The translations under genes and the position numbers were made by a program. From positions 1,817-65,816 of the forward strand of contig CAZZFS010000005.1 of assembly GCA_964653805.1 (NCBI GenBank): a stretch of DNA of 64,000 nt, read 5' to 3'. How positions within the stretch are numbered: the first letter of the stretch is position 1; every line of letters starts with the position of its first letter. Positions 14,445 to 35,950 of this stretch are shown piece after piece. The notes below the pieces were generated by a model. It saw only the letters and a list, made by a program, of their open reading frames with translations. It had not been told where the DNA came from and ran no database searches. The DNA is from an uncultured Clostridiaceae bacterium (GTDB lineage Bacteria > Bacillota > Clostridia > TANB77 > CAG-465).

Positions 14445-16076
14445 TTAAAATATGTTTTTTAAATCTGTTTTAATTAATTCATTATTTGAAGTTACTTTTA
14501 ATATTTCAACATTTCCTAATTTAGATATAAACCTTCTGTCATGTGTAACTACTATTATTATACCTTCAAATTCTGATATAACGTTTTCTAAAGCTTCTAA
14601 ACAATCTAAATCTAAATGATTTGTTGGTTCATCTAAAATAAGAGTATTTATATTTAAAAGAGAAAAAACAGCCAATTCTATTCTTAATCTTTGTCCTGGA
14701 CTAAAATCAAGAATACATTTATCTTTGTCTTCGTAATCAATTCCAAATTGATTCAATACCGTGAAAATTTTACTTTGTTCTTCTTTAACTTTTGATAACA
14801 CATATTCTTTTAATGTACTAATTTCATTTTTATCTGTTTCTTGAGACATATATGCTATTTTAATTTTAGACCCTTTTATAACCTCACCACTAATTGGTTT
14901 TAATGTTCCAACAATAGTTTTGAGTAAAGTTGTTTTACCAGAACCATTTTCTCCCGTAATAACAACTTTATTTCCCATTTCTATAGTATAGTTTACGTTA
15001 TTTAATATACTATAATCATAGCCACAATATAACTCTTTTAAAATAATACTACAATTATTAACTTTTTCATCTAAAGATATATTTATTTTAAGTTTAGGTA
15101 ATTGTTTTGGTCTTTCATGTTTTTGTATTTTTTCAAGTTTTTTTTCAGATGCTTTTGCAGATTTTGCTATAGAACTAGACCTATTTCTTTCAAATCCCCT
15201 AGTAAGTTTATCATTATCTTTTACATTTTGATTTCTACCTGATATAGCCCAATCTTTTTTTTGAGTTATATTTTTTTTAACTTTAAATATCTCTTCTTCT
15301 TGTTCTTCAAAAAGTTTCAATTCCAAATTATACTTTGATTCCATAGCTTTTAAATAATTTGAAAAATTACCTTTGTACTCTATAGAATTTCTTGTAAAAT
15401 AATCAATATATATAACTTTATTTATTATTTTATCAAGAAAAACTCTATCATGAGAAACAATTATTAAAGGAACTTCAACTTTGCTTAAATAATTTTCAAG
15501 CCATTTTAATGAATCAATATCAAGATTGTTAGTAGGTTCATCTAAAAGTAATAAGTCAGCACCTTTTAAAAGAACTGCAATAAGCATTATTTTGCTTTTT
15601 TGTCCACCACTTAATTTTTGTATACACTCATCTTTTTTTGTTTCATTTATTCCCATTCCATTTAACATATTGCTAATTTTGTACTCAAAATTATATCCAT
15701 CTAATGCCAAATATAGTTCTTGAAGATATGAATATCTTAACAATTTTTCATCACTGTCTAAATTTTCTTCCAATTGCAACATTTCTTTTTCAATTCTAAC
15801 TATACCTACATAATCTTTAATAAATTCAATTATTGTTTTTGAAGTATCAACAATTTCCATTTCTTGTTTAAAATATCCAATAAGATTTGAATCTGATTTA
15901 ATTATTTCACCAGCTTCTGGTTGCAATTCTCCAATTATTATTTTAAGTAATGTACTTTTCCCTACACCATTACTACCAACTAAACCTATTTTATTATTTT
16001 TGTTTAATTTGAAAGAAATATTATTAAGAATGATTTTTGAGTTAATACTGTAAGTTATATTTTTTACATCCAACAT
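14445..16076 (-). CDS. ABC-F family ATPase (two ABC domains, no membrane domain)
   Basis: Walker A GSNGVGKST and GENGSGKTT, signature LSGGQ, Walker B LLLLDEPTNNLD and LILDEPTNHLD, with a basic inter-domain linker. Confidence 0.85.
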   Translation of the reverse strand: MLDVKNITYSINSKIILNNISFKLNKNNKIGLVGSNGVGKSTLLKIIIGELQPEAGEIIKSDSNLIGYFKQEMEIVDTSKTIIEFIKDYVGIVRIEKEMLQLEENLDSDEKLLRYSYLQELYLALDGYNFEYKISNMLNGMGINETKKDECIQKLSGGQKSKIMLIAVLLKGADLLLLDEPTNNLDIDSLKWLENYLSKVEVPLIIVSHDRVFLDKIINKVIYIDYFTRNSIEYKGNFSNYLKAMESKYNLELKLFEEQEEEIFKVKKNITQKKDWAISGRNQNVKDNDKLTRGFERNRSSSIAKSAKASEKKLEKIQKHERPKQLPKLKINISLDEKVNNCSIILKELYCGYDYSILNNVNYTIEMGNKVVITGENGSGKTTLLKTIVGTLKPISGEVIKGSKIKIAYMSQETDKNEISTLKEYVLSKVKEEQSKIFTVLNQFGIDYEDKDKCILDFSPGQRLRIELAVFSLLNINTLILDEPTNHLDLDCLEALENVISEFEGIIIVVTHDRRFISKLGNVEILKVTSNNELIKTDLKNIF

Positions 16077-17254: not shown

Positions 17255-18212
17255 TTATATTTTTTTACCATTTCCTAGACGTACTTCCATAGGGAAATCA
17301 ATTTTTTTTATTATCTCTAAATATATATTATTATATTTACGAGGTTCTAAATTTATTGAATGAAAATATAATAAATATTTTTGTAAGAAATCATAAGCGG
17401 TGTGTCCTTGTATAAAAGCACTATCATAAGTAATTAAAGATTTAATTTCATTATATCTTTTATTTAATTTTTTTCTTTCTTTATTACAATTTATTGAGTT
17501 TTTCATTTTTTCAATAGCATTATTCATATCATCCTTATTATAATATTGACTTCTAGAAAAATCAAAATTAAATATATCTTTACGCTTATATTCTTGTTTA
17601 ATTATTGATCTTAAATAAATATTTTCTCTTACTGCATAAACTTGTACTCCCCAATATGCAAAATATTCTTTGGTTTCATTAACAAATTCACGATACATCG
17701 AATTAAATTTTATATAATCTTTATTACTCAACAAAAGATTTTCAAATATTAATTCTAAATTTATTTCCATCAAAAAATAATTTTCAAATGAATAGCCCTT
17801 TGTAACAGTAATGTTATTTCTATCTTTTATATCTAAAAAAGTATAACCTTTACTATGCAAATTTTTGATATATAATAATCCATCATAATCATAATCTACA
17901 ATAAAAACATATTTATTCATAAATTTTGAACATTTAACATCATCTCTTAAATTTTTATATGCATGTAGAACATACTGTTTACCAATTATATCATTTTTAT
18001 ATTCTTTTTGTCCGGCCGCATATAAAATAAACTTCATTTTTAATCGGTAATGTCGCATTTTTATATACAACAATATCACTTGTCCCCTCTACAATGCAAA
18101 ATTGATCATAATTATTAAATTGACTCGCAACCTCGAAGCAAATCTCTTTGATAGGAGGGGAATACCTATTGTTTTTATACTCATTTACAAACATTCTTTC
18201 AGAACTAATCAT
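17255..18212 (-). pseudogene. DUF4435/TOPRIM-like protein (AriB-like), split by a +1 shift
   Basis: ORF 17997..18212 carries FCIVEGTSDIVVYK (the VEGxxD motif of DUF4435), and ORF 17255..18079 carries the rest. Removing one base of the 5-nt homopolymer at 18037-18041 gives ...PIKMKFILYAAGQKEY... in a single frame. Its start overlaps the upstream ATPase stop. Confidence 0.55.
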
Positions 18213-19879
18213 TTTTTATCACTCCATTCGTTGGAAGATAAATTATACTATCAAATAAACTTTTTTCATATGGTATATATGGTGAGTGTGTTGCAATAAA
18301 TAAACTTTTAATATTTGTTCTGTCAATCAAATCTGTTACTATTTGCTTTTGCCATGTTATTGATAATGACAGTTCTGGTTCATCTATTATTATAATTATA
18401 TTTTCAATAAAAATTGATATTGCAAGTAATAATAATATTTTTTTCTCCCCAGACGATAACATATCTAAAGAAATATCACTAGTATAATTAGTAATTAATT
18501 TTAACTTATTCACTTGTTTAATCGTACTAGTATTTTCACAAATATTAATACCTGCGGGTGTAACAACTAATCTTTTATTTTTAATATACTTATCAAACAA
18601 TTCTTGTAAAAGTACTATTTTAGAACTTTCATAGCTTGTAAGTTTATTAAATTCATTTTTATAGAATTTAATAAAGGCTAAATCTATATCAGTGTAATTA
18701 AACTCTGTCTTCTTAAAATCATAATCTATATCAAATAGTGTGTCTTTAATTACAATTGGTAAAAAGTATTCTTTTACATTTTTCTCGACTAACGGATTGT
18801 TATAAAATTCAACTATTTCAGATAAATTATAATATTGATATTCTTTTCCTATTAAATCTTTATAATATGAAATTGCAGTTTCATTTATTTTTTTAATAAA
18901 ATTATTGTCATAATATTTTCTTGATATGAGTTTATTTATTTGTACTATTCTATTATCTATTAAGTTGTCCATGAAATCACTTTTAATATCATTTTTTAGA
19001 TTATTTCTTTCCACATATTCATCTATTTCAATAGTTATTTTATTATATAATGTTTTTGTCAATTCTATTGAATCTTCACCTAAAATATCATATAATTCAC
19101 TTGATATTCCATATCTATTTACCCTTTTGGGTCTAAATATATTAATTTTTCTATTAACATTAAAATTAGCAAGGTTCAATTCCTTAGATAATACGAATGA
19201 ATCCATTATTTTTTCATTTTGAAATCTATATTTTTCTACCATATCAATATAATAGCACCACTGTATACCATCTTTAGATATTTTTGTAGATATTTCGGAT
19301 ATTTTTTCTATATTACAAGTGTTAAACCATTTTATATGTTTACCTAACATAATACCGATTATATCCGTCAACAAAAGATTCTAAAGCATTTTTTATTACT
19401 GTTCTTCTATCGGTATTACCAAACTTAATATATTTAATTTCGGGTAAATTATATTTGGTACTTTGCTCAATAAATAATGTTTTTTCCCCTATTGGTAAAT
19501 TGAAATAACACGAACTTAAATAATCATATAATAAACCATTTTTATTTAATTCTTCAAATAGTTCTTTTTCAGAATTACTTATATCCTTTACTTCATTAGG
19601 TGCAAGCCCAATTAAATTAATTATTTTTTCTTGTAATTCATTTAATTTTGGGAATAATTCCGATTTTCTTAATCGTATTTTCTTGTTTTCAAAATAAAAA
19701 TCTATACTTTCAAATTTATATTTGCATAGATTAATAGGGTCATTTTTTATTATGCAATCTATTATTTTCAGCATTGTACTTTTTCCAGTTCCATTTTCAC
19801 CTACCAGAATATTGCATCTTTTTAATAAATCTATTTCATTTACGTATTTTCCAAACAATTTATTTATTCTTATTCTCAT
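18205..19879 (-). pseudogene. ABC/SMC-like AAA ATPase (AriA-like), split by a +1 shift
   Basis: ORF 19340..19879 has Walker A GENGTGKST. ORF 18205..19374 has signature LSSGEKK, Walker B IIIIDEPELSL and H-loop ATHSP. One ATPase domain is divided across two frames, and deleting one base of the 4-nt run at 19373-19376 joins them. Confidence 0.6.
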
Positions 19880-21260: not shown

Positions 21261-24200
21261 CTATATCAAATTTGCACTCATTAATTCAGCCTGTTTTATA
21301 ACTGTATCTACTGCACCATCAGCTTGCTCTGGTGGATATTGATACTTTCTAAGCAGCCTCTTTACTACTTTCCTCATATATGCTCTAGCAGATTCTTTTT
21401 TATCCCAATCTACTGTTCTACTATTTTGAACTTTTTGAGTAAGTTCATGTGCAAGCTCAATTAATACTTCATCTTGCATTTCTAAAACTACATTTGGATC
21501 TTTTACTAAAGCATTATAAAAAGCATATTCTTCTGTTGAAAGCCCTTTTTCTTCACCTTCATTATGTGATTCTATAATTTCATTAGATAACTTTAATAGT
21601 TCTTCTATAACTTCAGCACTATCTATAAGCCTATTGTTATAACTTTGCATTATTCTTTTTAACTTATCAGAGAATAGTTCAGATTTAACAATATTAGTTC
21701 TCTTAAATATTTTTATATTTCCTTCAAGTAATTTTTTTAGTAATTCTGCAGCAATATTTTTTTGTTGCATATTTCTAATTTTACTCATATAATCTTCAGA
21801 AAGAATAGATATTTCAGGATTTTCTCTATCTGCTATTTTAAATATATCAATTACACCTTCTTGTTTTATAGCTTGTTCTATTATTTTACTTATTCTTTCA
21901 TTTACTTCACTTGTAGTTAATTTTCCTGTTCCTGTAACTTTACAAATCCCTACTTTTACACCTTTAAAATATTCAACTTCTATTTTAGTTCTTTTATCTA
22001 GCATAGATCTACAAAGTGTATCTGCTTGAGATAAAGCAGTAGCTTCTCTTATGAAATCTTTTTTATCTTCTTCATCTAAAGATAAAATATAATTTATACC
22101 ATTTGACAATGTTCTAAGTCTTGCTTCATTAGAATCTTTAAAGAAATCAGAATAATTAAATCCATAAAATAAGTCTCTCATTATCTCTAATTTTTCCATT
22201 AAGATTATGTATGCTTTTGAAATATCCGGAACTTTATCTGCATCTCTTGATGTATATCTAGCAAGTGCTGTTTTTAGTTCTGCACCTATGCCAATATAAT
22301 CTACTATAAGTCCAGCTTCTTTATCTTTATATACTCTATTTACTCTTGCAATAGCTTGCATTAAATTATGTCCTTGCATTGGTTTATCTATATACATTGT
22401 AGCAAGAGATGGAACATCAAATCCGCGTTAGCCACATATCCACTACAATCACTATTTTAAGCTTACTATTTTTATCTTTAAAACTTAATGCTAATTCTTC
22501 TCTATATGCTTTATTTCCTACTATATCATGCCAATCTTCTGGGTCATCATTATTGTCTGTTAAAACAACTGCTACTTTTTCATTCCAATTAGGTCTTATC
22601 TCTAATATTTCTTTATATAAATTTATAGCTACTTTTCTACTCATAGAAACAATCATAGCTTTTCCTTCAAGAATATCTTTTCTTTGTTCATAATGATCTA
22701 TTATATCATTTGCAAGTAAGTTTAATCTTTCTTTAGAACCTATAATAGATTCCAATTTTGCAAGTTCTTGTTTAGATTTTTCTATAGTTTCATCATCTGC
22801 TTGTCCAGACTCTGAAATAGCGTTATATTCTGCATCAGCTTCTGCAAGTAAAGTTTCATTTAAATTAAGTTTAGCAACTCTGTTTTCATAATATATTGGA
22901 ACAGTAGCATTATCTTCAACAGCTTGTGTCATATCATAAATATCTACATAATCTCCGAATAATTCTTTCGTATTTCTATCTGCAAAATCTACTGGTGTTC
23001 CTGTAAATCCAATAAAAGTAGCATTAGGTATAGCTTCTCTCATTATTTTAGACATACCGTATTTAAATTCACCTGTTTTACTTACAAATTTACCACTTAA
23101 TCCATATTGACTTCTATGAGCTTCATCAGCTATAAATATAACATTTGAACGATCTGTTAGCGAATCATTTCCTTCTTCAAATTTTTGTATAGTAGTAAAT
23201 ATAATACCACCAGCGTTTACGCTTAATAATTCTTTTAATTCTTTTCTATTACCCGCTTGTTTAGGAGTTTGAGGTAATATTTCACTATTACAAATAGCAA
23301 AAGTAGAATATAGTTGATTATCTAAATCATTTCTATCTGTTAAAACAACTATAGTAGGGTTATCTAATGATATATCTTTCATTAACATTCCAGTATAAAA
23401 TACCATAGATAAACTTTTACCACTACCTTGAGTATGCCAAACAACACCTGCTTTTTTAGTTCCATCAATTAAAGCTTTTTTAGTACTAGTTAAAGCTTTT
23501 TTTACAGCAAAATATTGATGATATCCAGCAAGTATTTTTGTTTTCTTTTCTTCTTTATTTTGAAAAACAATAAAATTAATTATAATATCAATTAATCTTT
23601 CTTTTCTAAATACACCTTGAATTAAAATATCAACTTGATTAATATTTTCTTCAGGCTTTTCTCCATCAATAGACTTCCAAGTCATATATCTAGTTAAATC
23701 TGAAGTAATAGTTCCAAGTTTAGCATTTACACCATCACAAATAACAGAAAAAGCGTTATATTCAAATAATGATTTAATATCCATTTGATAATTTTTAATT
23801 TGATTATATGCATTTTCAATTGTAGTGTTTTCTTTAGTAGCACTTTTAAGTTCAAAAACAACTAAAGGAATACCATTAACAAAAACAATAACATCAGGTC
23901 TTTTAGTTTTAAATCCTTCAATAGTATATTGATTAACAACAGTAAAATCATTATTTAAAACATTATCTCTATCAATTAGTTTACAAGTATATGTTTTATC
24001 TCCAGATAAAGGAACTTCAACACCACGATATAACATTCTACTAAATTCATAGTTAGCAAGTGTAAGTTCAATTGAATTTAAATTACGAACTTTTCTATAC
24101 ACTTCATCTGCTATATCCACAGTTATACCTTCATTTATTTTAAATAATGAATCATATAACTTGTCCTTTATAACTGTTTCATGATAATCACGATCAATAT

Positions 24201-24279
24201 CTGGTCCGAATACATGATTGTATCCTAAACTTTCTAATTGTTCTATTATACCTAATTCTACTTGTTCTTCATTAAACAT
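21261..24279 (-). pseudogene. hsdR: type I restriction enzyme R subunit, interrupted by a +1 frameshift
   Basis: ORF 22417..24279 has HTQGSGKS, DEAH and ...[12 protein letters not shown] 21261..22397 starts [21 protein letters not shown]. My reading of the junction (22417-22431): removing one base of acgcgga gives [21 protein letters not shown], the expected continuous HsdR motif. Confidence 0.85.
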
Positions 24280-27740: not shown

Positions 27741-27788
27741 AAATAATAAAAAAATAAGACGCATCTTTTTTATTATTTGCGCCTTATT
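27741..27788 (-). terminator. terminator closing the four-gene nuclease operon
   Basis: aataagacgca (27753-63) pairs with tgcgccttatt (27778-88) with one mismatch. On the minus strand it is followed by a T-run. Confidence 0.55.
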
Positions 27789-27852: not shown

Positions 27853-29256
27853 CTATCTATATCTTTCTATTTTGAACAAATTTTTTTCATTCAAAAATAC
27901 AATGAATTTTACTGCTTCATCTGCTAAACATGCTGTAAGAGCGTATTTGTACTTATCATGTTCAATTTTTTCATACCAACCTTTTTTACCTTCTGGCACT
28001 TCAGCATATTGTTTGTCATTTTCCAATACAAGTGGAGTATATCTACCAGTATAATATATTATATCATTCTGTTCTTGTGGTGATAATTTTTCAATATTTT
28101 TAATAATTTTTTTTATAAGTTTTTTATTATTTAATAAGGTATCATTTTTTTCTATATCTTTTCCACCTTTTATTTTTTTTATTTTATTAACATTTTTTAT
28201 GTTATCTATACTTTTAAAATTTTCCAAATTTTCTTTTGAAAAATCCTTATAATTGTTTTCTTTTGCCAAATACTTAAATATTGGTTTTAAAACTTGTATA
28301 TTATTACTATAAACACTACATGCATGATTAGTTATTTCATCATAATTTAAAAAATCATCTTTCGTTTTTTTTAATTTATCAAAAAGTTTTAAAATACTAA
28401 TTAATATATAATTTAATTCTTTACTATAGCTATCACATATACTATTTATATATAATTTTTCTTTTTTACTATTTGTTATTGTTATTTTATTTAGACTTTG
28501 TATATAGTTTCCAATATATATTTTTGATTCTTTTTCAATGCTTGCGTCTTCATAACATACTTCTAATATATATTTTAATAATTCTTCATACGTTATTAAA
28601 ATATACTTATCTTTATATCTATTAATATTATCTATTTTTTTATTATTAAATATAGCTGGAATATTATTTTCAGGACACAAGAATACTAAAATTGATCTAT
28701 TATTAGCTTCTTTTTCTATTTCTTCTGCATAACTTATATATTTATCCAATTGATTTATTGTTTCATTTATTTCTTCTTGATTTATTATTTTATTTATTTC
28801 TTTTAAATTCATTTCTCCATTAATTCCACTATAAATTTTATTTTCAATAATTATATTAATACTTTTAAAATTTTCTTCGTTCAATTCAATATCAAAATTT
28901 ATAAACAAATCAATAAATCCTGTTTTATCAGCAGTTGCTTTTTCTCTTGTTACATGTATCTTTGAAATACCACCCTTGTTGTTAAGATATTCATTTAATT
29001 TTTTATCTTTTTCTATCAATAAACTTAATAATTTTTTTAATGGTTCATCACCTAATAAATGTGAAGATTTTGAATCAAAAATCCATTTCAAAAAATTACT
29101 ATGAATATTTTCATTCGTAGTTGTTCCTAAAATATCAAAAATATTTTCATACTCATAATATTCTTTTAGTTTTGTAAATTCCTTACTATTTATTAGATTA
29201 TTTATTAGATTATTTATTAGATTATTTATTTTTTTTATATATTCTTCTTTTTCCAT
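27853..29256 (-). CDS. PD-(D/E)xK nuclease-superfamily protein (PDDEXK_4-like)
   Basis: ENIHSNFLKWIFDSKSSHLLGDEPLKKLL, then GFIDLFINF ... NIIIENKIYSG (D...ExK). The ATG at 29256 follows an AGGTGGGA RBS. The N-terminus has an in-frame (NNLI)n repeat. Confidence 0.6.
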   Translation of the reverse strand: MEKEEYIKKINNLINNLINNLINSKEFTKLKEYYEYENIFDILGTTTNENIHSNFLKWIFDSKSSHLLGDEPLKKLLSLLIEKDKKLNEYLNNKGGISKIHVTREKATADKTGFIDLFINFDIELNEENFKSINIIIENKIYSGINGEMNLKEINKIINQEEINETINQLDKYISYAEEIEKEANNRSILVFLCPENNIPAIFNNKKIDNINRYKDKYILITYEELLKYILEVCYEDASIEKESKIYIGNYIQSLNKITITNSKKEKLYINSICDSYSKELNYILISILKLFDKLKKTKDDFLNYDEITNHACSVYSNNIQVLKPIFKYLAKENNYKDFSKENLENFKSIDNIKNVNKIKKIKGGKDIEKNDTLLNNKKLIKKIIKNIEKLSPQEQNDIIYYTGRYTPLVLENDKQYAEVPEGKKGWYEKIEHDKYKYALTACLADEAVKFIVFLNEKNLFKIERYR

Positions 29257-29315
29257 AATATTTCCCACCTTTAATATCTAATATCTTTTCAATACTTTAT
29301 ATAGTTATTTACTCA

Positions 29316-30266
29316 TTATATATTTTGATCTACATCAAAATCCATTATATTTTTACCATCTTCTTTTAATCCACAATATATAATTTCTACTTTAAAGTTA
29401 CCTTTTAATTTATTTATATTGCTAATTGTTTTTTGTATAACATCCTTTTTCATTATTTTTTTTATCTTATTCTCTTCTTTTTTATTTTCAATTGTATAAC
29501 CTAGTATAATACAATATTTTATATTTTCAATATTGTTTATATAATCTTCTTTTATATCTAAATCTAGTAATTGTGCAAGTAATTTAATATTTTCTTTTTC
29601 TTTTTGTAAATTTATTTTCGGTAAAAATTCGTATGCGGATTTTAAATGTTTTTCTATACTAGGTTTACTCTCTTTATTTTTAGCTTCCGATTCTCCTACT
29701 GTTCCACATGCATCTGAATTATATTTTACTTCTATATATACTAAAGATTTATCTTCTTTATCTATCCCAACCATATCAGTACGGTCAATAATTTTCTTAC
29801 TATCAGTTCTTTTATTATCTTCCATATCAATAAACTGTAAATTATTCACTCCTTTTTTATATAGCAAATTCTGAAATTGATATTCCTTATATGAGCGAAC
29901 ATTTTTTATATATAAATCAATTGATTCTTTACAATCTCTTACTATCGAATTAAAATCCACTTTTAATTTTTCTATATTCTTATAATTCATACTTTCTAAT
30001 ATTTTTTTATACTTACTAATATCCCCTATATTATGTGATTTGTTTGTATTAAACACGTTACTGCATGTTGTAATTTTTTTTAATTCTAGCTTTAATAAAT
30101 TAAGTTTTTTATAATATATTTGAATAGCATTTTTTCTTATACAAAATGCTAAATCTGTATCATTTTTGCAATATTCCCTAAAGAATATTATATGTTTATC
30201 ATTTAACTCTAAAAACTCATTACTAAGTTTTCTATCCATTATAATTGTTTCTTCCATATCCATCAT
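29316..30266 (-). CDS. hypothetical protein with a possible PD-(D/E)xK core
   Basis: RTDMVGIDKEDKSLVYIEVKY fits a D...ExK pattern. The ATG at 30266 follows a GGAGGG RBS, 16 nt after the MBL gene stop. Confidence 0.4.
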   Translation of the reverse strand: MMDMEETIIMDRKLSNEFLELNDKHIIFFREYCKNDTDLAFCIRKNAIQIYYKKLNLLKLELKKITTCSNVFNTNKSHNIGDISKYKKILESMNYKNIEKLKVDFNSIVRDCKESIDLYIKNVRSYKEYQFQNLLYKKGVNNLQFIDMEDNKRTDSKKIIDRTDMVGIDKEDKSLVYIEVKYNSDACGTVGESEAKNKESKPSIEKHLKSAYEFLPKINLQKEKENIKLLAQLLDLDIKEDYINNIENIKYCIILGYTIENKKEENKIKKIMKKDVIQKTISNINKLKGNFKVEIIYCGLKEDGKNIMDFDVDQNI

Positions 30267-30282
30267 AATTTTTTCCACCCTC

Positions 30283-31521
30283 CTATATTTCAACCTCTTC
30301 ATTATCTTGTATATCACTTGCCTCTTTATATAACTTCAAAAACTCCTTTCTATTTTCAGTATGTATTGGTATTATTTTATCACACTTAGTTATTTTAATT
30401 AAATCCTCTATATCTTTTCTTGTAGCATGACCACTTGTGTGTATATCTATTATAGGTATATTCATTTCTGTTATTTTTTTCAAATCTTCTTTCATCTTAT
30501 CTGTTTCTTTATAATCATTCCACATACTATATATAAATACAGGTTTATCAATCTTATTTTTGCTATATAACTCTTGTATATATTCTACAAAATTACTTCT
30601 TAACATTAATACATATGAATTGTTTAATTTCTCTTCTTTTATAATGTATTTTCCTATCCAGTTAATATATTTTTCTGGGAATTCTTTATTTCTATTTGGA
30701 ATATATACTTTTACAGTTTCAAATGTTACTGGATTAGGAATGCTTATACAACTTTTTTTATCTATAGCTATCATCTTTGTTAAATTTGCTAAATATACAT
30801 CTTGTATAAATAACTTATTTGTTTTAATACTAGCCTTATATAAAGAACATACTCTATCTATATTAGTTGAAGCTGACAATACAAATACTTGATTATATTT
30901 ACTAAATATATTTTTGCATTCTTTTATTACATCTTCTTCTGTTTCAATTCTTTTTTTGTTATTTGATATATTAGTTCCTTCACATATTACAGTGTCAAAT
31001 TTCCCATATTTACTTATTCTATTTAATTGACCTTTACCTTTATATCCACTTGTTCTAAAATCTCCCGTGTGTAATATTTTCTTACCATCTGCTTCTATAA
31101 CAAACATAGCAGAATTGTATGCACTATGGTCAGCTATAATTGGTGTTATTTTAATATCTCCTATTAATATAGTTTTATTAAATTCAAAAAAATTAGCATT
31201 AAGTATTTTCCTGCCACAAGTTATATCTATATACATATTATGCATTTTGCAAGTTACCATATCAATATATTTGGGTATATCTTTTAATATGTATTCTTGA
31301 AGGCCTAAATGATCTCCATGATAATGTGTGAAAAATATTGCATCATATTGTTTATTTCCAATAGTCAAACCTTCTATATTTGGATTTTTTTCTTTGATTC
31401 TTTTTTCACACACCTTACCTAACTCTTCGCCTATATCAATAATTATTTTTGTTGTTTTTGTAGATATTTCAGTAATACAACCACCTATTTGATTAGTTCC
31501 TCTTATTACTTTAATATTCAT
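30283..31521 (-). CDS. beta-CASP family metallo-beta-lactamase-fold nuclease (RNase J/Artemis-like)
   Basis: THYHGDHLG (HxHxDH), ADHSAYNS, HTGDFR, VICEGT (motif A), HTSGHA (motif B) and PIHTE (motif C), in canonical order. Confidence 0.8.
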   Translation of the reverse strand: MNIKVIRGTNQIGGCITEISTKTTKIIIDIGEELGKVCEKRIKEKNPNIEGLTIGNKQYDAIFFTHYHGDHLGLQEYILKDIPKYIDMVTCKMHNMYIDITCGRKILNANFFEFNKTILIGDIKITPIIADHSAYNSAMFVIEADGKKILHTGDFRTSGYKGKGQLNRISKYGKFDTVICEGTNISNNKKRIETEEDVIKECKNIFSKYNQVFVLSASTNIDRVCSLYKASIKTNKLFIQDVYLANLTKMIAIDKKSCISIPNPVTFETVKVYIPNRNKEFPEKYINWIGKYIIKEEKLNNSYVLMLRSNFVEYIQELYSKNKIDKPVFIYSMWNDYKETDKMKEDLKKITEMNIPIIDIHTSGHATRKDIEDLIKITKCDKIIPIHTENRKEFLKLYKEASDIQDNEEVEI

Positions 31522-31523
31522 AA

Positions 31524-32678
31524 CTACATACCTTTGTTTTCTTTCGATATAACATCTTCAATATAATCATTAATAACAGTGTAACTATTTAATGCAGCTA
31601 ATTTTTCTTCTGATATTTCTATTATATTTTTAGATAATAGTATTTTATTTTTATATATTATACATTCATCTTGTTTTGATTTTGTCTTATCATATGATAT
31701 ATAGTTTTTTAATATTGTATAATATTGACCTTTAATGAATTTTAATGAAGAGCTGTTTTCTAAATATTTTTCTTCTTCAAAATATTTTTGTATATATTTA
31801 TCTTCTAAAATTTTACCGTTTGCTATATACCATTCTTTCATTTTTTCTATATTTAAAACATAGCCTGATGTATTATCATCATATTCATATATTTCCATTG
31901 CCTTAACAAGTTCTTTATTGTCATTATACCATTTACATTGTTTTTTTAGTAATGATAATTTGTATTTAGATAATTTTTCTTCTTTTGTTTTTATAACTTC
32001 TTCATCTACTAATATTTTTGCAATACTTATATTATTATCTAAAATACCAAATTTTCCAGATTTATTATTCTCATCATATACAATACTTATATGATTTTCA
32101 TTTATATCATCAAACACAATTCTTATTTGGCTTATTTTTGATCTAACATAATTTCTATTATGCATATCACTATATTCCATTGCATTTTCATCTACTTTAA
32201 AGATATTTTTATTTTTGAATTTTTTGAATATAAAAGTATCTTTAATAATATCTAAATTATAATTAAGATATCCAACATACGTTTTTAATGGATAATTTAT
32301 TTTATAAAATGCAATGATATAACTCAAATTACATATAGATTTATATTTATTAGGATATACTTTTTTAAAAATATTTTCCAACTCTTCATATGTTAATGGT
32401 TTTACCATCTCTAATATTCTTTGAAACAATAAATCTCCTAATATATTTAAAATAGGATCCCATCCATGTTTATAATTACAAATTAGATATATTATATTTT
32501 CAACTGCTTTATCTGAATAGTCTATTTCTTTATTTATTTCCAAATATTCTAAAAAACTTTCTAATTCATTTTCTTCTTCTAATTCATCATCTAATGTTTT
32601 AATTTCATATAAATCTTTAAAAAAATTTATTTCTTCCATTAACTCCTCTGGGTTTAGTTCATCTTTATTATTTTTCAC
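31524..32678 (-). CDS. hypothetical protein, first gene of the nuclease operon
   Basis: The GTG at 32678 lies 9 nt after AGGAGG (the track's TTG start at 32702 lies upstream of the RBS). Acidic N-terminus. The segment KPLTYEELENIFKKVYPNKYKSICNLSYIIAFYKINYPLKTYVGYL weakly recalls the PolC/DnaE KP.tF.eL and AYFKvHyPl.fY.a motifs. Confidence 0.5.
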   Translation of the reverse strand: MKNNKDELNPEELMEEINFFKDLYEIKTLDDELEEENELESFLEYLEINKEIDYSDKAVENIIYLICNYKHGWDPILNILGDLLFQRILEMVKPLTYEELENIFKKVYPNKYKSICNLSYIIAFYKINYPLKTYVGYLNYNLDIIKDTFIFKKFKNKNIFKVDENAMEYSDMHNRNYVRSKISQIRIVFDDINENHISIVYDENNKSGKFGILDNNISIAKILVDEEVIKTKEEKLSKYKLSLLKKQCKWYNDNKELVKAMEIYEYDDNTSGYVLNIEKMKEWYIANGKILEDKYIQKYFEEEKYLENSSSLKFIKGQYYTILKNYISYDKTKSKQDECIIYKNKILLSKNIIEISEEKLAALNSYTVINDYIEDVISKENKGM

Positions 32679-32949
32679 TCTAACATACCTCCTAATTTTC
32701 AAAATATTTATTTGGAAATATTATACTCCTTTTTTATAAAACAAACAATACCAAAGCTATCTTTTTGTAATATTTTGTAAGGAAATCTCAATTTTATACT
32801 TTTAAATCAATTCTATTACTTATTAAAATAAAAATAAATAGACTAATGTAATATGGGCAAAAGTTGTCATATTATATATTGATATCATTGCTAATAGCTC
32901 TCTAATGATATATAATATATGTATTAATATATCTAAGGAGGGGTGAAAA

Positions 32950-33939
32950 ATGAAAAGATTTGATTTTACAAAAGGTGTAGAAAAATTAATAGATCCAATA
33001 AATGTAGGTTCTCTTCATTTCATGCAATTTTTTAATAATTTACTACCAAAAAATATTCAGCGCAAACTAGTAACTTCAGCTTCAAAAAAAACACCATATA
33101 TGGGTTTTGTAGTAGAACCATATAGTTATTTTTTATGTTATGAAATACAAGATATAAAAAAAGCTAAATCTTTACTTCCTGAAGGTTTTGAATTAATTAA
33201 AACACATATCTTTGATAATGATGAACCAAAGTATTATTGTATTTTTGGTTGTATCAATGCTCATACAAGTGCTTTTTTAGGTCTTAGAGTAGAATTTTAT
33301 ATAATTGCAGAAGATAAAAAAACTGGCTTACTTAGTTGGATAATTGTTGACTATGATACTAATACAATAAGTTATGATAAAAAACAAGGTCTTATGAATC
33401 CAAATGCTAGTAATTCATTAATTACGATAAATTATGATGGTACTTTGATTGTTGATGTTAATAGAAATGATAATAGTAGAAATTTAATATTTGAAAGTGA
33501 TATTAAAACAGGAGTAATGAAATCTTTAGATCAAAGATTATGGTTAGAAGGTAATCTTTCAATTGGATATGGCAAAAGTATTTCAAGAAATGATGCTGAT
33601 ATCTTTTCACTTAAATTTGATCCTTTAGAAGTAGAAAAAGCTTTAGATATTCCTATTTCTAGTTTAAATATGCAAGTAAATTCATGGTTTCCTGGATTAT
33701 TTAAAGATACGCCTTCTAAATTAGTTTGTTTCCCTTATGCTCAACATTTTATATCAGACAGTCCTGGTTATTCAAGTAATCTAAAAGATAAAGATGAACT
33801 TGTTTTAGCATTAGAAAAAGTAGATTTTGAAAAAATTAATGTTTTTTCAACTAAATCTTTCAAAACAATGTTTTTAGTTGGACCTATTATTTCGTTTTTA
33901 ATAACTTTATCACTTTTAATTATGTTGTTTTTAAAATAG
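32950..33939 (+). CDS. hypothetical protein with a C-terminal membrane anchor
   Basis: 329 aa with an AAGGAGGGG RBS. The terminal helix is FLVGPIISFLITLSLLIMLFL. No motif recognised. Confidence 0.5.
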   Translation: MKRFDFTKGVEKLIDPINVGSLHFMQFFNNLLPKNIQRKLVTSASKKTPYMGFVVEPYSYFLCYEIQDIKKAKSLLPEGFELIKTHIFDNDEPKYYCIFGCINAHTSAFLGLRVEFYIIAEDKKTGLLSWIIVDYDTNTISYDKKQGLMNPNASNSLITINYDGTLIVDVNRNDNSRNLIFESDIKTGVMKSLDQRLWLEGNLSIGYGKSISRNDADIFSLKFDPLEVEKALDIPISSLNMQVNSWFPGLFKDTPSKLVCFPYAQHFISDSPGYSSNLKDKDELVLALEKVDFEKINVFSTKSFKTMFLVGPIISFLITLSLLIMLFLK

Positions 33940-34501: not shown

Positions 34502-34888
34502 TTATTTTTGTTTTTTGGTTTTGTTTTCAAACTTGTTTCTTGCAATTATCCAAGTTTTTTTAGTGTTGCTTTTTTCTGGTAATTTTGTAATGTCAATTCT
34601 AACTACATCTTCATCATGGTAATAATCCTCTAATTCCTCAAAAATTTCATTGCCTTTAGATTCTAATTCGCAAATACCACGAACTCCTCTTAAAACTACT
34701 TTATACCAATTTTTGTCATCGTTTAGTATTTCACTACCAACTGAGTTACAAAAAGCTTCTTCCCATTCCTCAATTATCAACAATGGTGACATAAGATTTT
34801 CATCATACTTATTTACCACTGTAACCTGAACATTGAACTCATTCTTTAATAAAGCACAAATTTCTCGTCTACACTCTTTAGTTAACAT
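34502..34888 (-). CDS. hypothetical acidic protein
   Basis: The ATG at 34888 (MLTKECRRE) follows a GGAGGA RBS, with a TTGACG-17-TATAAT promoter upstream. Confidence 0.5.
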   Translation of the reverse strand: MLTKECRREICALLKNEFNVQVTVVNKYDENLMSPLLIIEEWEEAFCNSVGSEILNDDKNWYKVVLRGVRGICELESKGNEIFEELEDYYHDEDVVRIDITKLPEKSNTKKTWIIARNKFENKTKKQK

Positions 34889-35024
34889 TATTATTTCCTC
34901 CAAAATATTAATTTATTTAGAACATATATAAATAATTTATATGTATATTATAACATTTTAATATCGTTTCGTCAATGTTTATGTAAACTATCGAATGTTT
35001 TTTTATTATTATATCTATTCTACA

Positions 35025-35801
35025 TTATGGTTGCATTACACCAGAAAATACTAACCAAGCTAACACTGTTTTAGCTAAAAGACTTAACACTATATATGTT
35101 TTTTCACCATATAAGTAATCTTTCCATTTACCAACTTTTTTATATTGCAAAATCATATTTATTGGAAATAGATTGAAAAATACAAAATATGATCCAAATA
35201 TTGCATAAACAAACCAAGGAACTTCTGCCGGATTACTATTTCCAAAAGCATACATTATTATTACTATCCAAGGTATAACTCCTGCAATACTTCCATATAT
35301 AAATGGTGACCAATCTGTTTTTTTAGTATATTGATTTAATTTTTCCATTAAAAGTCCAAATAAGTTCATTGATGCATTTAATCCAAATATAAGTAACAAA
35401 GCACCTATATCGTAAATACCAAACAATACACTTATTAATACAATCATTATAGATGAGCTAATTGAATATTCATACCATCTAAATGAATTCATGTTATTTG
35501 TAATTTGTTCATTATATTTTTTATTAAATGTTTTTGATACTACTATAAAATGAAATAGTGCTGATAGGAATAAAAATACTGATACTAATATCCCATATGG
35601 AAGCAAAAATAATTCCTTTTGCTCAGTTACTAATCTCATTTGAGTACTATCAAATGTTAAAAAATAAGATACTATTTGTGGTTTAAAGTTTGCAACTTTT
35701 TCCACGTTTAAAGATATAACAAGCATTATAATGCCTTGTATAAAATGAAACATTCCCATTATAAGATTAAACTTTTTTAATGAATTTAATTTTTCACTCA
35801 T
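35025..35801 (-). CDS. heliorhodopsin
   Basis: 258 aa from the ATG at 35801 (AGGAGGAG RBS). LSALFHFIVVS, FRWYEYSISSSIMIVLI, FGLNASMNLFGLLMEK, GVIPWIVIIMY and YIVLSLLAKTVLAWLVFSG match the hallmark helices of heliorhodopsin 48C12 as I recall them, including the Schiff-base Lys (SLLAK) and the Glu of RWxEYS. Confidence 0.85.
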   Translation of the reverse strand: MSEKLNSLKKFNLIMGMFHFIQGIIMLVISLNVEKVANFKPQIVSYFLTFDSTQMRLVTEQKELFLLPYGILVSVFLFLSALFHFIVVSKTFNKKYNEQITNNMNSFRWYEYSISSSIMIVLISVLFGIYDIGALLLIFGLNASMNLFGLLMEKLNQYTKKTDWSPFIYGSIAGVIPWIVIIMYAFGNSNPAEVPWFVYAIFGSYFVFFNLFPINMILQYKKVGKWKDYLYGEKTYIVLSLLAKTVLAWLVFSGVMQP

Positions 35802-35906
35802 AAAAATCTCCTCCTTATATAAAAACATTATACACCTCAAAATTTTATTTTGCAACAAATTAATAATTTTAGATAATTTTAATGACATTAATTATATTTT
35901 ATTTAC

Positions 35907-35950
35907 AAAAAAAAACAATGCATAAAATTTTACTTTTATACATTGTTTAT
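35907..35950 (-). terminator. hairpin terminator (near-identical copy of 14389-14430)
   Basis: aaaaaaaaacaatgcataaaa-ttttac-ttttatacattgttt. Confidence 0.55.

What the first reader, a model, noticed from the sequence alone, without database searches (positions are those of the whole stretch)
27853..32678. Uncharacterised four-gene nuclease operon abutting the type I R-M / PARIS-like island
Seen in sequence:
- Four co-directional genes with gaps of 2, 16 and 59 nt.
- Their own upstream intergenic region (32679-32949) and their own terminator (27741-27788), so this is a discrete transcription unit.
- Gene 1 (384 aa) has no domain I can name, apart from a weak PolC/DnaE-like stretch (KPLTYEEL..., AFYKINYPLKTYVGYL).
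- Gene 2 has every beta-CASP MBL nuclease motif in order: HYHGDH, ADHS, HTGDFR, CEGT, HTSGHA, PIHTE.
- Gene 3 has a possible D...EVK core.
- Gene 4 has a PDDEXK_4-like N-terminus (HSNFLKWIF...HLLGD) and IDL...ENK.

Inference: three predicted nucleases plus an unknown partner sit directly beside hsdMSR, an AriA/AriB-like pair and an ankyrin protein. That matches the layout of defence islands. I cannot match this gene combination to any named defence system I know.
Basis: partly seen in the sequence, partly recalled or inferred. Interest (0 to 1): 0.85.

Follow-up and report, generated by a model that had tools for sequence, protein, structure and literature searches.

The report
Unnamed beta-CASP plus PD-(D/E)xK nuclease cassette
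The four genes are real, but they are a three-gene nuclease cassette of an unnamed and probably anti-invader type, whose third gene is swapped between strains, followed by a separate defence-candidate gene that is already catalogued.

Summary
Four co-directional minus-strand genes have gaps of 2, 16 and 59 nt, and a strong hairpin plus U-run follows gene 4. All nuclease motifs are intact, and type I R-M, ankyrin and AriA-like genes sit next door.

The "one four-gene system" reading does not hold.
- Gene 4 matches PADLOC's single-gene candidate PDC-S26. It has no homologue at any of the 88 other MBL loci examined.
- In a sibling contig, g1 is 99% and g2 97% identical. Homology ends 28 nt into g3, where an unrelated PD-(D/E)xK gene sits instead.

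The conserved core is a 412-aa beta-CASP MBL nuclease tightly coupled to a PD-(D/E)xK nuclease. The partner belongs to one of two families (A, which includes g3, or B); neither matches Pfam or PDB. This pairing occurs in 55 of 85 loci, mostly from gut Bacillota.

Gene 1 is under purifying selection. Its N-terminal part resembles the fingers region of a PolC-like protein that precedes the MBL gene in 32 of 85 loci. Other relatives carry WYL, AAA+ or DEDDh genes instead. They sit beside R-M, GmrSD and McrBC genes and recombinases.

No PADLOC model or paper I searched names this module. The most likely function is a nuclease-based anti-mobile-element system. That is inferred, not shown.

The parts
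32679..32949 (.). Divergent intergenic region upstream of g1; presumed promoter region (no specific promoter identified)
   Evidence: No ORF here. AGGAGG lies 8 nt before the g1 GTG. Promoter-like hexamers are not above the shuffle expectation. The region is conserved at about 95% with sibling contig L094.
31524..32678 (-). g1: 384-aa accessory protein. Its N-terminal ~245 aa resemble the C-terminal fingers region of PolC-like proteins. It has no PHP or palm (catalytic) domain. The C-terminal ~140 aa are specific to this lineage.
   Evidence: No hit in Pfam, NCBIfam, PADLOC or PHROGs. Only two clusters in 5.8 billion proteins. hhalign against the PolC-like family gives 91% (E 9e-7), or 51% with other settings. 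The g1 HMM's only non-family hits among 1212 locus proteins are Pol-like proteins (8.5e-6; 0.04-0.06), and the Pol HMM hits the L003 homologue at 1.4e-3 in two collinear blocks. dN/dS is 0.06-0.22. The AlphaFold model failed (pLDDT 34).
30283..31521 (-). g2: 412-aa beta-CASP metallo-beta-lactamase nuclease with all catalytic motifs intact; the constant core of the cassette
   Evidence: Pfam Lactamase_B_2, RMMBL and Lactamase_B. Distant match to RNase J (67 bits vs cut-off 400; PDB RNase J 4e-12, EF2904 2e-10). Invariant H66, H68, D70, H71, H132, D154, E181, H361, H365, H387. More than 5000 homologues. dN/dS is 0.14-0.22.
30238..30282 (-). Conserved g2-g3 junction (RBS GGAGGGTGG plus the first codons, ATGATG...), where homology with sibling contigs ends; the cassette-exchange breakpoint
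   Evidence: blastn shows L094 homology ending at window 30238 and L001 at 30248. The junction sequences are aligned.
29316..30266 (-). g3: 316-aa PD-(D/E)xK-type nuclease, a divergent member of 'family A', which is adjacent to the MBL gene in many genomes
   Evidence: hhalign against cluster c7 gives 94.7%, E 6e-8 over 148 columns. E128, D147, E149, D164, E179, K181 and H207 are invariant. Only four remote relatives in 1.84 billion representatives. The AlphaFold model (pLDDT 61, pTM 0.66) has a helix, three strands, helix, strand core carrying those residues. Foldseek found nothing significant; the top hits are Can2, HamA, Shedu, MunI and NucC.
27853..29256 (-). g4: 467-aa PDDEXK_4 protein matching PADLOC single-gene candidate PDC-S26. 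It is an independent neighbour that may be co-transcribed, not part of the conserved cassette.
   Evidence: Pfam PDDEXK_4 at 2e-16. PDC-S26 models at 6e-22 to 7e-3. No homologue in any other MBL locus. Absent from L094 and L001. No hairpin in the g3-g4 gap.
27741..27788 (-). Hairpin plus U-run downstream of g4; a likely intrinsic terminator that ends the transcription unit before the hsdM promoter
   Evidence: RNA fold -15.7 kcal/mol, z -5.05. The pattern scan missed it because its loop is about 14 nt. A TTGACA-18-TAAAAT site at 27638-27609 precedes hsdM.

Best explanation
The locus is composite.

(1) g1-g2-g3 is one instance of a widespread, unnamed, modular nuclease cassette. Its fixed core is a beta-CASP MBL nuclease (g2), translationally coupled to a PD-(D/E)xK endonuclease. 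That partner comes from one of two families with no Pfam or PDB match: family A (g3 here) or family B. The partner is exchanged by recombination at the very start of its gene, even between strains whose g2 is 97% identical.

g1 is an accessory subunit derived from the fingers region of a PolC-type polymerase. In other lineages the same position holds one of the following: a fuller PolC-like protein (in some the DIDxNF motif is intact, in many it is lost), with RecA/DnaB_C-like, KOW and HTH proteins; WYL and AAA+ proteins; or DEDDh exonucleases.

(2) g4 is a separate single-gene defence candidate (PDC-S26). It happens to lie downstream and can be read through.

Proposed mechanism (inferred, not shown). 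The cassette is an anti-mobile-element defence system. On a trigger sensed or gated by the accessory protein, the PD-(D/E)xK enzyme cuts invader nucleic acid and leaves 5'-phosphate ends. These ends are the preferred entry point of beta-CASP 5'->3' exonucleases of the RNase J / SNM1 type, and the exonuclease then degrades the invader. DEDDh partners in relatives would add 3'->5' degradation. Motif C of g2 is His, the variant seen in RNA-acting members, so RNA or ssDNA targets remain possible.
For: Shown:
- The g1-g2 pair is conserved with a swapped third gene in L094 and L001.
- g3 belongs to family A with its catalytic signature intact.
- 55 of 85 loci have a family A or B gene co-directional within two genes of the MBL gene. 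Isolated two-gene units exist.
- Intergenic distance is 35 nt or less in 33 of 38 family A pairs and 24 nt or less in 9 of 10 family B pairs.
- Families A and B have no Pfam or PDB match.
- One family B member is fused to RNase_T, and cluster c8 contains RNase_T.
- g1 is linked to PolC-like proteins, which lie within two co-directional genes of the MBL gene in 32 of 85 loci.
- g1 and g2 are under purifying selection.
- No PADLOC hits for g1-g3 or for relatives' components, except WYL and weak IetA-like AAA+ hits.

Context:
- Window: type I R-M, PDC-S26, AriA-like and ankyrin genes.
- L094: GmrSD plus an integrase.
- L004-6: GIY-YIG, Dcm, HATPase_c_3 and Z1 genes.
- Plasmids: McrC, DUF262 and Eco57I-type R-M genes.
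- L182: Dcm plus MutH-like genes and a serine recombinase.
- The family is rare on viral contigs: 3 loci in IMG/VR against 416 in genome contigs.
- The window's lowest GC falls on g3 and g4.
Against: - There is no functional data of any kind.
- Defence-island association was judged from about ten annotated examples, not from a genome-wide enrichment statistic with a control.
- Many of the 85 loci have ordinary chromosomal flanks.
- The link with PolC-like, RecA-like, WYL and DEDDh genes fits DNA repair equally well.
- The g1-PolC link is moderate (hhalign 51-91% depending on settings; no Pfam or PDB hit).
- The g3 fold rests on a medium-confidence model with no significant Foldseek match.
- DefenseFinder and post-2023 system catalogues could not be run.
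Confidence: 0.55

Rival explanations
1. A DNA-damage repair or tolerance cassette. The beta-CASP enzyme would act like SNM1/Pso2 on damaged DNA ends, together with a PD-(D/E)xK nuclease and a PolC-derived factor. In relatives it would be controlled by WYL regulators of the PafBC/DriD type, which respond to ssDNA.
For: PolC-like proteins (PHP + palm + fingers), RecA/DnaB_C-like ATPases, DEDDh exonucleases and UDG occur in the same operons or next to them. WYL proteins sit directly upstream in L003-L006 and in pCY186. Eukaryotic beta-CASP DNA nucleases work in crosslink repair (my own knowledge).
Against: - Distribution is patchy, and the partner gene differs at strain level.
- The window, L094, L004 and the plasmids place it among R-M, GmrSD and McrBC genes.
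- The polymerase catalytic motif is lost in many members and absent from g1.
- There is no hit to the ligase-associated exonuclease family at E <= 1.
- WYL regulators also control many defence systems (papers read).
Confidence: 0.2
2. Cargo or a remnant of the replication-recombination module of an undescribed integrative element that replicates with a minimal PolC-like polymerase. On this reading g1 is what is left of the polymerase, and the nucleases process the element's own DNA.
For: The cassette HTH-KOW-RecA/DnaB_C-like-PolC-like-MBL-family A recurs in 32 of 85 loci. Serine recombinases, integrases, a DDE transposase, TraX, PcfJ and primase-polymerase genes lie nearby in several loci. L007 carries DnaB_C, UDG and PriA.
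Against: - g1 is under purifying selection, so it is not decaying.
- Two-gene MBL + nuclease units occur without any replication gene.
- Several Pol-type cassettes have plain chromosomal flanks with no integrase within 10 kb.
- The family is almost absent from viral contigs.
- The polymerase catalytic residues are often lost.
Confidence: 0.13
3. One reading: all four genes, including g4, work together as one defence operon built from three nucleases and a partner.
For: The four genes are co-directional. No terminator lies between g3 and g4, and one strong terminator follows g4. g3 and g4 share the lowest GC in the window.
Against: g4 matches the single-gene candidate PDC-S26. No g4 homologue occurs in any other MBL locus. 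L094 and L001 keep g1-g2 without g3 or g4.
Confidence: 0.08
4. A housekeeping RNase J-like RNA-processing enzyme with RNA-processing partners.
For: The best named matches are RNase J. Motif C is His, and the Pfam RMMBL domain matches.
Against: The score is 67 bits against a cut-off of 400, and the RNase J model's C-terminal part is not matched. The gene lies in a strain-variable island. Its partners are PD-(D/E)xK proteins, not RNA-processing factors.
Confidence: 0.03

Closest known systems
RNase J / bacterial beta-CASP MBL nucleases (including the uncharacterised E. faecalis protein EF2904, PDB 2AZ4)
   Same: MBL fold with a beta-CASP insert and all metal-binding motifs. Motif C is His. These are the best sequence matches.
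   Different: About 140 residues shorter, and the RNase J model's C-terminal part is not matched. The score is far below the family cut-off. The gene is accessory, lies in an island and is paired with a PD-(D/E)xK gene.
MBL pro-nuclease effector modules of defence systems (trypsin-MBL in Hachiman HamMAB, AVAST and Lamassu; caspase-nuclease 'canu')
   Same: An MBL-fold nuclease encoded as a modular effector inside defence loci and exchanged between systems (papers PMC12799240 and PMC13069673).
   Different: According to PMC12799240, those nucleases resemble DNA-uptake (ComEC-type) MBLs and are activated by a partner protease. Here the enzyme is beta-CASP type, no protease domain was found in g1, g3 or g4, and no PADLOC Avs or Ham model is hit.
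Type VII CRISPR-Cas (Cas14 beta-CASP effector)
   Same: A beta-CASP nuclease used as an immune effector (PMC13069675 and PMC12669027, listed).
   Different: The window has no CRISPR array and no strong Cas match: the only Cas hits in PADLOC are marginal (Cas11a at E 0.054 for g4; Cas1e at E 6e-4 for a neighbouring gene). The partner here is a PD-(D/E)xK nuclease.
WYL (BrxR/CapW)-regulated defence operons
   Same: Close relatives (g2 73-79% identical) have an HTH-WYL gene directly upstream of the MBL gene, as does plasmid pCY186.
   Different: The window copy has no WYL gene; g1 occupies that position. WYL regulators also control DNA-damage regulons.
PADLOC candidate PDC-S26 (applies to g4 only)
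   Same: g4 matches seven PDC-S26 models and Pfam PDDEXK_4.
   Different: PDC-S26 is itself only a predicted, untested candidate. It has no detected link to g1-g3.
ImuA-ImuB-DnaE2-type cassettes built on Pol III alpha paralogues
   Same: A RecA-like ATPase plus a Pol III alpha-family paralogue in one accessory operon. This is an analogy drawn from my own knowledge.
   Different: There is no Y-family ImuB. The polymerase is PolC-like and often catalytically dead. The cassette is always tied to beta-CASP and PD-(D/E)xK nucleases, and g1 keeps only the fingers part.

Membership tests
RNase J (TIGR00649 / NF047419) | Whole-protein score at or above the curated cut-off | tested here: not met
   67.3 bits vs 400; 59.1 bits vs 820
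RNase J (TIGR00649 / NF047419) | C-terminal domain after the beta-CASP/MBL core (about 550 aa in total) | tested here: not met
   g2 is 412 aa. The match covers profile positions 3-388 of 546.
beta-CASP MBL nucleases | MBL motifs HxHxDH, H and D, plus beta-CASP motifs A (D/E), B (H) and C (H/V) | tested here: met
   H66, H68, D70, H71, H132, D154, E181, H361 and H387 are invariant in 30 sequences. RMMBL matches at 2e-7.
PD-(D/E)xK nuclease superfamily (g3) | Conserved acidic residues and lysine (D...ExK) on a helix, three strands, helix, strand core | tested here: met
   E128, D164 and E179-x-K181 are invariant in alignments A2 and A5. In the model they sit on H125-138, E159-169 and E174-182.
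PD-(D/E)xK nuclease superfamily (g3) | Significant match to a known PD-(D/E)xK family or structure | tested here: inconclusive
   Pfam gives only single weak hits for family members (PDDEXK_7 at 0.017, PDDEXK_4 at 0.025). The PDB profile search found nothing. The best Foldseek E-value is 0.05, although the top hits are Can2, HamA, Shedu and MunI.
Pol III alpha / PolC family (g1) | Palm domain with catalytic aspartates, and a PHP domain | tested here: not met
   g1 has no Pfam hit. Its similarity covers only the C-terminal fingers part, Pol HMM positions 452-717 of 736.
Pol III alpha / PolC family (g1) | Homology of the fingers region | tested here: inconclusive
   hhalign gives 91% (E 9e-7) or 51% depending on settings. 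HMM E-values range from 8.5e-6 to 1.4e-3 in a 1212-protein set. No PDB hit.
Any system in PADLOC-DB v2.0.0 | An HMM match of g1, g2 or g3 to a system component | tested here: not met
   No hits for g1 or g2. g3 has only HTH_VI at E 0.055. Relatives' family A, family B and Pol proteins also lack hits.
PADLOC candidate PDC-S26 (g4) | An HMM match to the PDC-S26 models plus a stand-alone gene | tested here: met
   Seven models match, the best at 6.4e-22. g4 has no association with the MBL family in 88 other loci.
Trypsin-MBL / canu pro-nuclease modules | A partner trypsin-like or caspase protease that activates the MBL nuclease | tested here: not met
   No protease domain in g1, g3 or g4. The defining features are taken from PMC12799240.
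Type VII CRISPR-Cas | A CRISPR array and Cas5/Cas7 genes beside the beta-CASP effector | tested here: not met
   No array-like repeats. The only Cas matches in PADLOC are marginal: Cas11a at E 0.054 for g4 and Cas1e at E 6e-4 for the 32950-33939 neighbour.
WYL-regulated defence operon | An HTH-WYL regulator gene adjacent to the operon | tested here: not met
   Absent from the window. Present in relatives L003-L006 and in pCY186.
Anti-phage defence system (functional class) | Protection against phage or plasmid on expression | not testable with these tools
   Requires experiments.

The most novel reading that the evidence does not exclude
A widespread and so far unnamed family of modular immune systems in gut Bacillota. 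It is built on a beta-CASP nuclease with an exchangeable PD-(D/E)xK partner. Its accessory subunit was exapted from a replicative PolC polymerase and survives as a graded series: versions with the DIDxNF motif intact, versions that have lost it, and the fingers-only g1. On this reading the polymerase remnant acts as the sensor or decoy for invader replication machinery or DNA ends.
Probability: 0.3. Interest if true: 0.8.

Novelty: new variant of a known kind. Interest (0 to 1): 0.62.

Why it matters
If the cassette is a defence system, three things follow.
- It adds a new effector pairing, a beta-CASP exonuclease with a PD-(D/E)xK endonuclease. This differs from the protease-gated MBL nucleases described recently.
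- It defines two PD-(D/E)xK families with no match in Pfam.
- It gives an example of a replicative-polymerase fragment recruited into a conflict system.

The strain-level swap of the third gene at a fixed junction is a clean natural experiment in cassette exchange.

If it turns out to be a repair module instead, it would be a bacterial counterpart of SNM1-type end processing linked to a PolC paralogue.

Either way, more than 5000 'MBL fold metallo-hydrolase' annotations in gut Bacillota would gain a context.

Tried and rejected
- Exact and near-exact searches for g1 and g3 gave almost nothing: two clusters and one cluster in 5.8 billion proteins. An exhaustive HMMER search with g3 found only four remote relatives.
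- A single-protein scan of genome contigs with g2 found only an irrelevant Saccharibacteria hit. The profile scan was needed.
- AlphaFold of g1 with a two-sequence alignment failed (pLDDT 34), so no fold search was run.
- Foldseek of the g3 model gave no significant match.
- PDB profile searches for family A, family B and g1 gave nothing.
- Rfam found no RNA family anywhere in the window.
- The terminator pattern scan found none, and the promoter scan was uninformative in this AT-rich DNA.
- The g1 C-terminal 140 aa matched none of the accessory families: WYL, c23, c8, c10, AAA, KOW or HTH.
- g4 had no plasmid homologue by tblastn.
- Phage records hold only distant (21-24% identical) MBL relatives.

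Rejected readings: housekeeping RNase J, type VII CRISPR, trypsin-MBL or canu modules, and CBASS-related 'MBL operons', which need E1/E2-like genes that are absent here.

Full report
**Observation**

The window is about 24% G+C. It comes from an uncultured Clostridia-like organism: the best ThrRS identity to any GTDB species representative is 69%.

On the minus strand there are four co-directional genes:
- g1: 32678..31524, 384 aa
- g2: 31521..30283, 412 aa
- g3: 30266..29316, 316 aa
- g4: 29256..27853, 467 aa

The gaps are 2, 16 and 59 nt, and each gene has a Shine-Dalgarno-like motif.

Downstream of g4, a hairpin followed by a U-run folds at -15.7 kcal/mol, with z = -5.05 against shuffles. 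The simple pattern scan missed it because its loop is about 14 nt. The g3-g4 gap has no comparable structure, so g4 can be read through from upstream.

**What each gene is**

g2 is a beta-CASP metallo-beta-lactamase nuclease.
- Pfam gives Lactamase_B_2, RMMBL and Lactamase_B.
- All catalytic residues are invariant in a 30-sequence alignment.
- It is only distantly related to RNase J. It scores 67 bits against a cut-off of 400, and the match does not cover the RNase J model's C-terminal part. PDB gives RNase J at 4e-12 and the uncharacterised EF2904 at 2e-10.

g4 is a PDDEXK_4 protein (2e-16). It matches seven models of PADLOC's single-gene candidate PDC-S26 (best 6e-22).

g1 and g3 have no Pfam, NCBIfam, PADLOC or PHROG match. 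They are near-orphans: two clusters and one cluster respectively in 5.8 billion proteins.

**The four genes are not one conserved unit**

Contig L094 carries g1 at 99% and g2 at 97% identity in the same chromosomal setting. DNA homology with the window ends at 30238, which is 28 nt into g3. Downstream, L094 has an unrelated 267-aa gene, a 333-aa gene, GmrSD and an integrase.

Contig L001 (g1 80%, g2 89%) breaks at 30248 and also has a different third gene.

The RBS and the first codons (ATGATG) are shared across the junction.

g4 has no homologue in any of the 88 other MBL-containing loci I clustered. So g4 is an independent neighbour, and the third position is an exchangeable slot.

**The conserved core**

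A profile scan of species-representative genomes found 416 relatives of g2. I analysed the best 80 together with the contigs of the close relatives.

Neighbouring proteins were clustered and compared profile-to-profile.
- Clusters c3, c7, c20 and c29 form one superfamily, 'family A' (92-98% probability).
- g3 joins it: 94.7%, E 6e-8 over 148 columns.
- g3 keeps all invariant residues: E128, D147, E149, D164, E179-x-K181 and H207.
- A second family, 'family B', has its own invariant E...D...ExK...E signature. It includes the third genes of L094, L001 and L003.

In 55 of 85 non-redundant loci, a family A or B gene lies co-directional within two genes of the MBL gene. Isolated two-gene units flanked by opposite-strand genes exist. 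Spacing is operon-like: 35 nt or less in 33 of 38 family A pairs and 24 nt or less in 9 of 10 family B pairs.

Neither family matches Pfam or PDB sequences.

An AlphaFold model of g3 (five-sequence alignment, pLDDT 61, pTM 0.66) places the conserved residues on a helix, three strands, helix, strand core typical of PD-(D/E)xK enzymes. Foldseek found nothing significant, although its top non-significant hits are Can2, HamA, Shedu, MunI and NucC.

**Gene 1**

The N-terminal ~245 aa are shared with a 244-aa protein in L003 (31% identity, E 2e-23).

In 32 of 85 loci, a PolC-like protein lies within two co-directional genes of the MBL gene, usually directly upstream. It matches DNA_pol3_alpha at 1e-23, and full versions carry PHP and fingers domains. 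The PolC catalytic motif DIDxNF is kept in some members and lost in many.

g1 aligns to the C-terminal fingers part of this family.
- hhalign gives 91% (E 9e-7), or 51% with other settings.
- The only non-family hits of a g1 HMM among 1212 locus proteins are Pol-like proteins (8.5e-6; 0.04-0.06).
- The Pol HMM hits the L003 homologue in two collinear blocks.

g1 is not a decaying fragment: dN/dS is 0.06-0.22. Its structure could not be predicted (pLDDT 34).

**Other accessories and context**

Close relatives of g2 (73-79% identity) have an AAA+ ATPase and an HTH-WYL protein upstream. L003 has AAA+, a g1-like protein, WYL, MBL and family B in that order.

Elsewhere the cassette includes:
- an HTH protein (c2), a KOW protein, RecA/DnaB_C-like proteins, and Macro and NUDIX genes;
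- a DEDDh (RNase_T) exonuclease, either as a separate gene or fused to family B.

Annotated surroundings include:
- type I R-M, PDC-S26 and AriA-like genes in the window;
- GmrSD and an integrase (L094);
- GIY-YIG, Dcm, HATPase_c_3 and Z1 genes (L004);
- McrC, DUF262 and Eco57I-type R-M genes on plasmids;
- Dcm with a MutH-like gene and a serine recombinase.

Several loci have ordinary flanks.

The family is nearly absent from viral contigs: 3 loci against 416 in genomes.

**Comparison with known systems**

No PADLOC v2 model matches g1-g3 or their family A, family B or Pol relatives. The literature searches found MBL nucleases in defence only in three forms:
- protease-gated pro-nucleases (Hachiman, AVAST, Lamassu and canu);
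- the type VII CRISPR effector Cas14;
- CBASS-related 'MBL operons'.

None of their defining partners is present here. No protease domain was found, there is no CRISPR array, the only Cas matches in PADLOC are marginal, and there are no E1/E2-like genes.

**Interpretation**

The structural conclusion is well supported. The locus is composite: g1-g2 with a swappable PD-(D/E)xK gene, followed by an independent PDC-S26 gene.

The functional conclusion is inference. Four things favour a conflict (anti-mobile-element) system:
- the patchy distribution;
- the strain-level exchange of the partner nuclease at a fixed junction;
- tight operon coupling;
- the recurrent R-M, type IV restriction and recombinase neighbourhoods.

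I propose endonucleolytic cutting by the PD-(D/E)xK enzyme. This would create 5'-phosphate ends, which are the preferred substrates of RNase J / SNM1-type beta-CASP exonucleases (established enzymology, from my own knowledge). The PolC-derived g1 would be the gating or targeting subunit.

A DNA-repair cassette and a mobile-element replication module remain serious rivals, because PolC-like, RecA-like, WYL and DEDDh genes fit them too.

**Verdict**

- Observation: confirmed.
- Interpretation: partly supported.
- The cassette is an unnamed variant of nuclease-based accessory systems and deserves experimental testing.
- The claim of a four-gene system should be dropped.

Noticed in passing
window 21261-24279 (- strand): hsdR of the type I R-M system is split into two ORFs (24279..22417, 620 aa, and 22397..21261, 378 aa). 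Together they cover the full REase_I model. This could be a frameshift or stop pseudogene, or an assembly error.
   Followed up: no
window 18205-19879 (- strand): The AriA-like OLD/ABC-type ATPase is also split into two overlapping ORFs: 19879..19340 (AAA_15 N-terminal part) and 19374..18205 (AAA_21 part). The 274-aa ORF downstream (18079..17255) has no Pfam hit.
   Followed up: no
window 35025-35888 (- strand): A heliorhodopsin gene (Pfam 4e-102) in a low-GC Clostridia-like genome. This segment (about 34532-35909) is not shared with sibling contig L094, although both flanks are.
   Followed up: partly
L009-L096, e.g. L018:2352-10463, L095:3736-11266, L096:5234-11242: In 32 of 85 loci a PolC-like protein lies within two genes of the MBL gene. 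It is usually part of a recurrent 5-7 gene cassette in gut 'Bacilli' MAGs: HTH protein, KOW protein, RecA/DnaB_C-like protein(s), PolC-like protein (PHP + palm + fingers, about 630-900 aa), beta-CASP MBL, family A nuclease. The polymerase catalytic motif DIDxNF is intact in some members and lost in many. I could not find a name for this cassette.
   Followed up: partly
L092:3917-12463: One Pol-type cassette also carries NUDIX and Macro domain genes inside the operon. DUF1016/YhcG, AAA_33 and HD genes lie upstream.
   Followed up: no
window 29187-29230 and 28750-28802 (inside g4): A perfect 12-nt x 3.7 tandem repeat encodes the NNLI repeats near the g4 N-terminus. A second 27-nt x 2 repeat lies further into the gene. 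Either could vary in length.
   Followed up: no
window 28001-30000: The lowest G+C of the whole window (19.3%) coincides with g3 and g4. This fits recent acquisition of that segment.
   Followed up: no
L040:9286-10764 / L181:10304-11782; L182:12016-13014: A family B nuclease is fused to an RNase_T (DEDDh) exonuclease domain. In other loci a separate RNase_T gene (cluster c8) sits in the same operon as the MBL gene.
   Followed up: partly
window 14445-16076 (- strand): A 543-aa protein with two ABC_tran domains, possibly ABC-F type, lies among several GNAT acetyltransferase genes just beyond the island.
   Followed up: no
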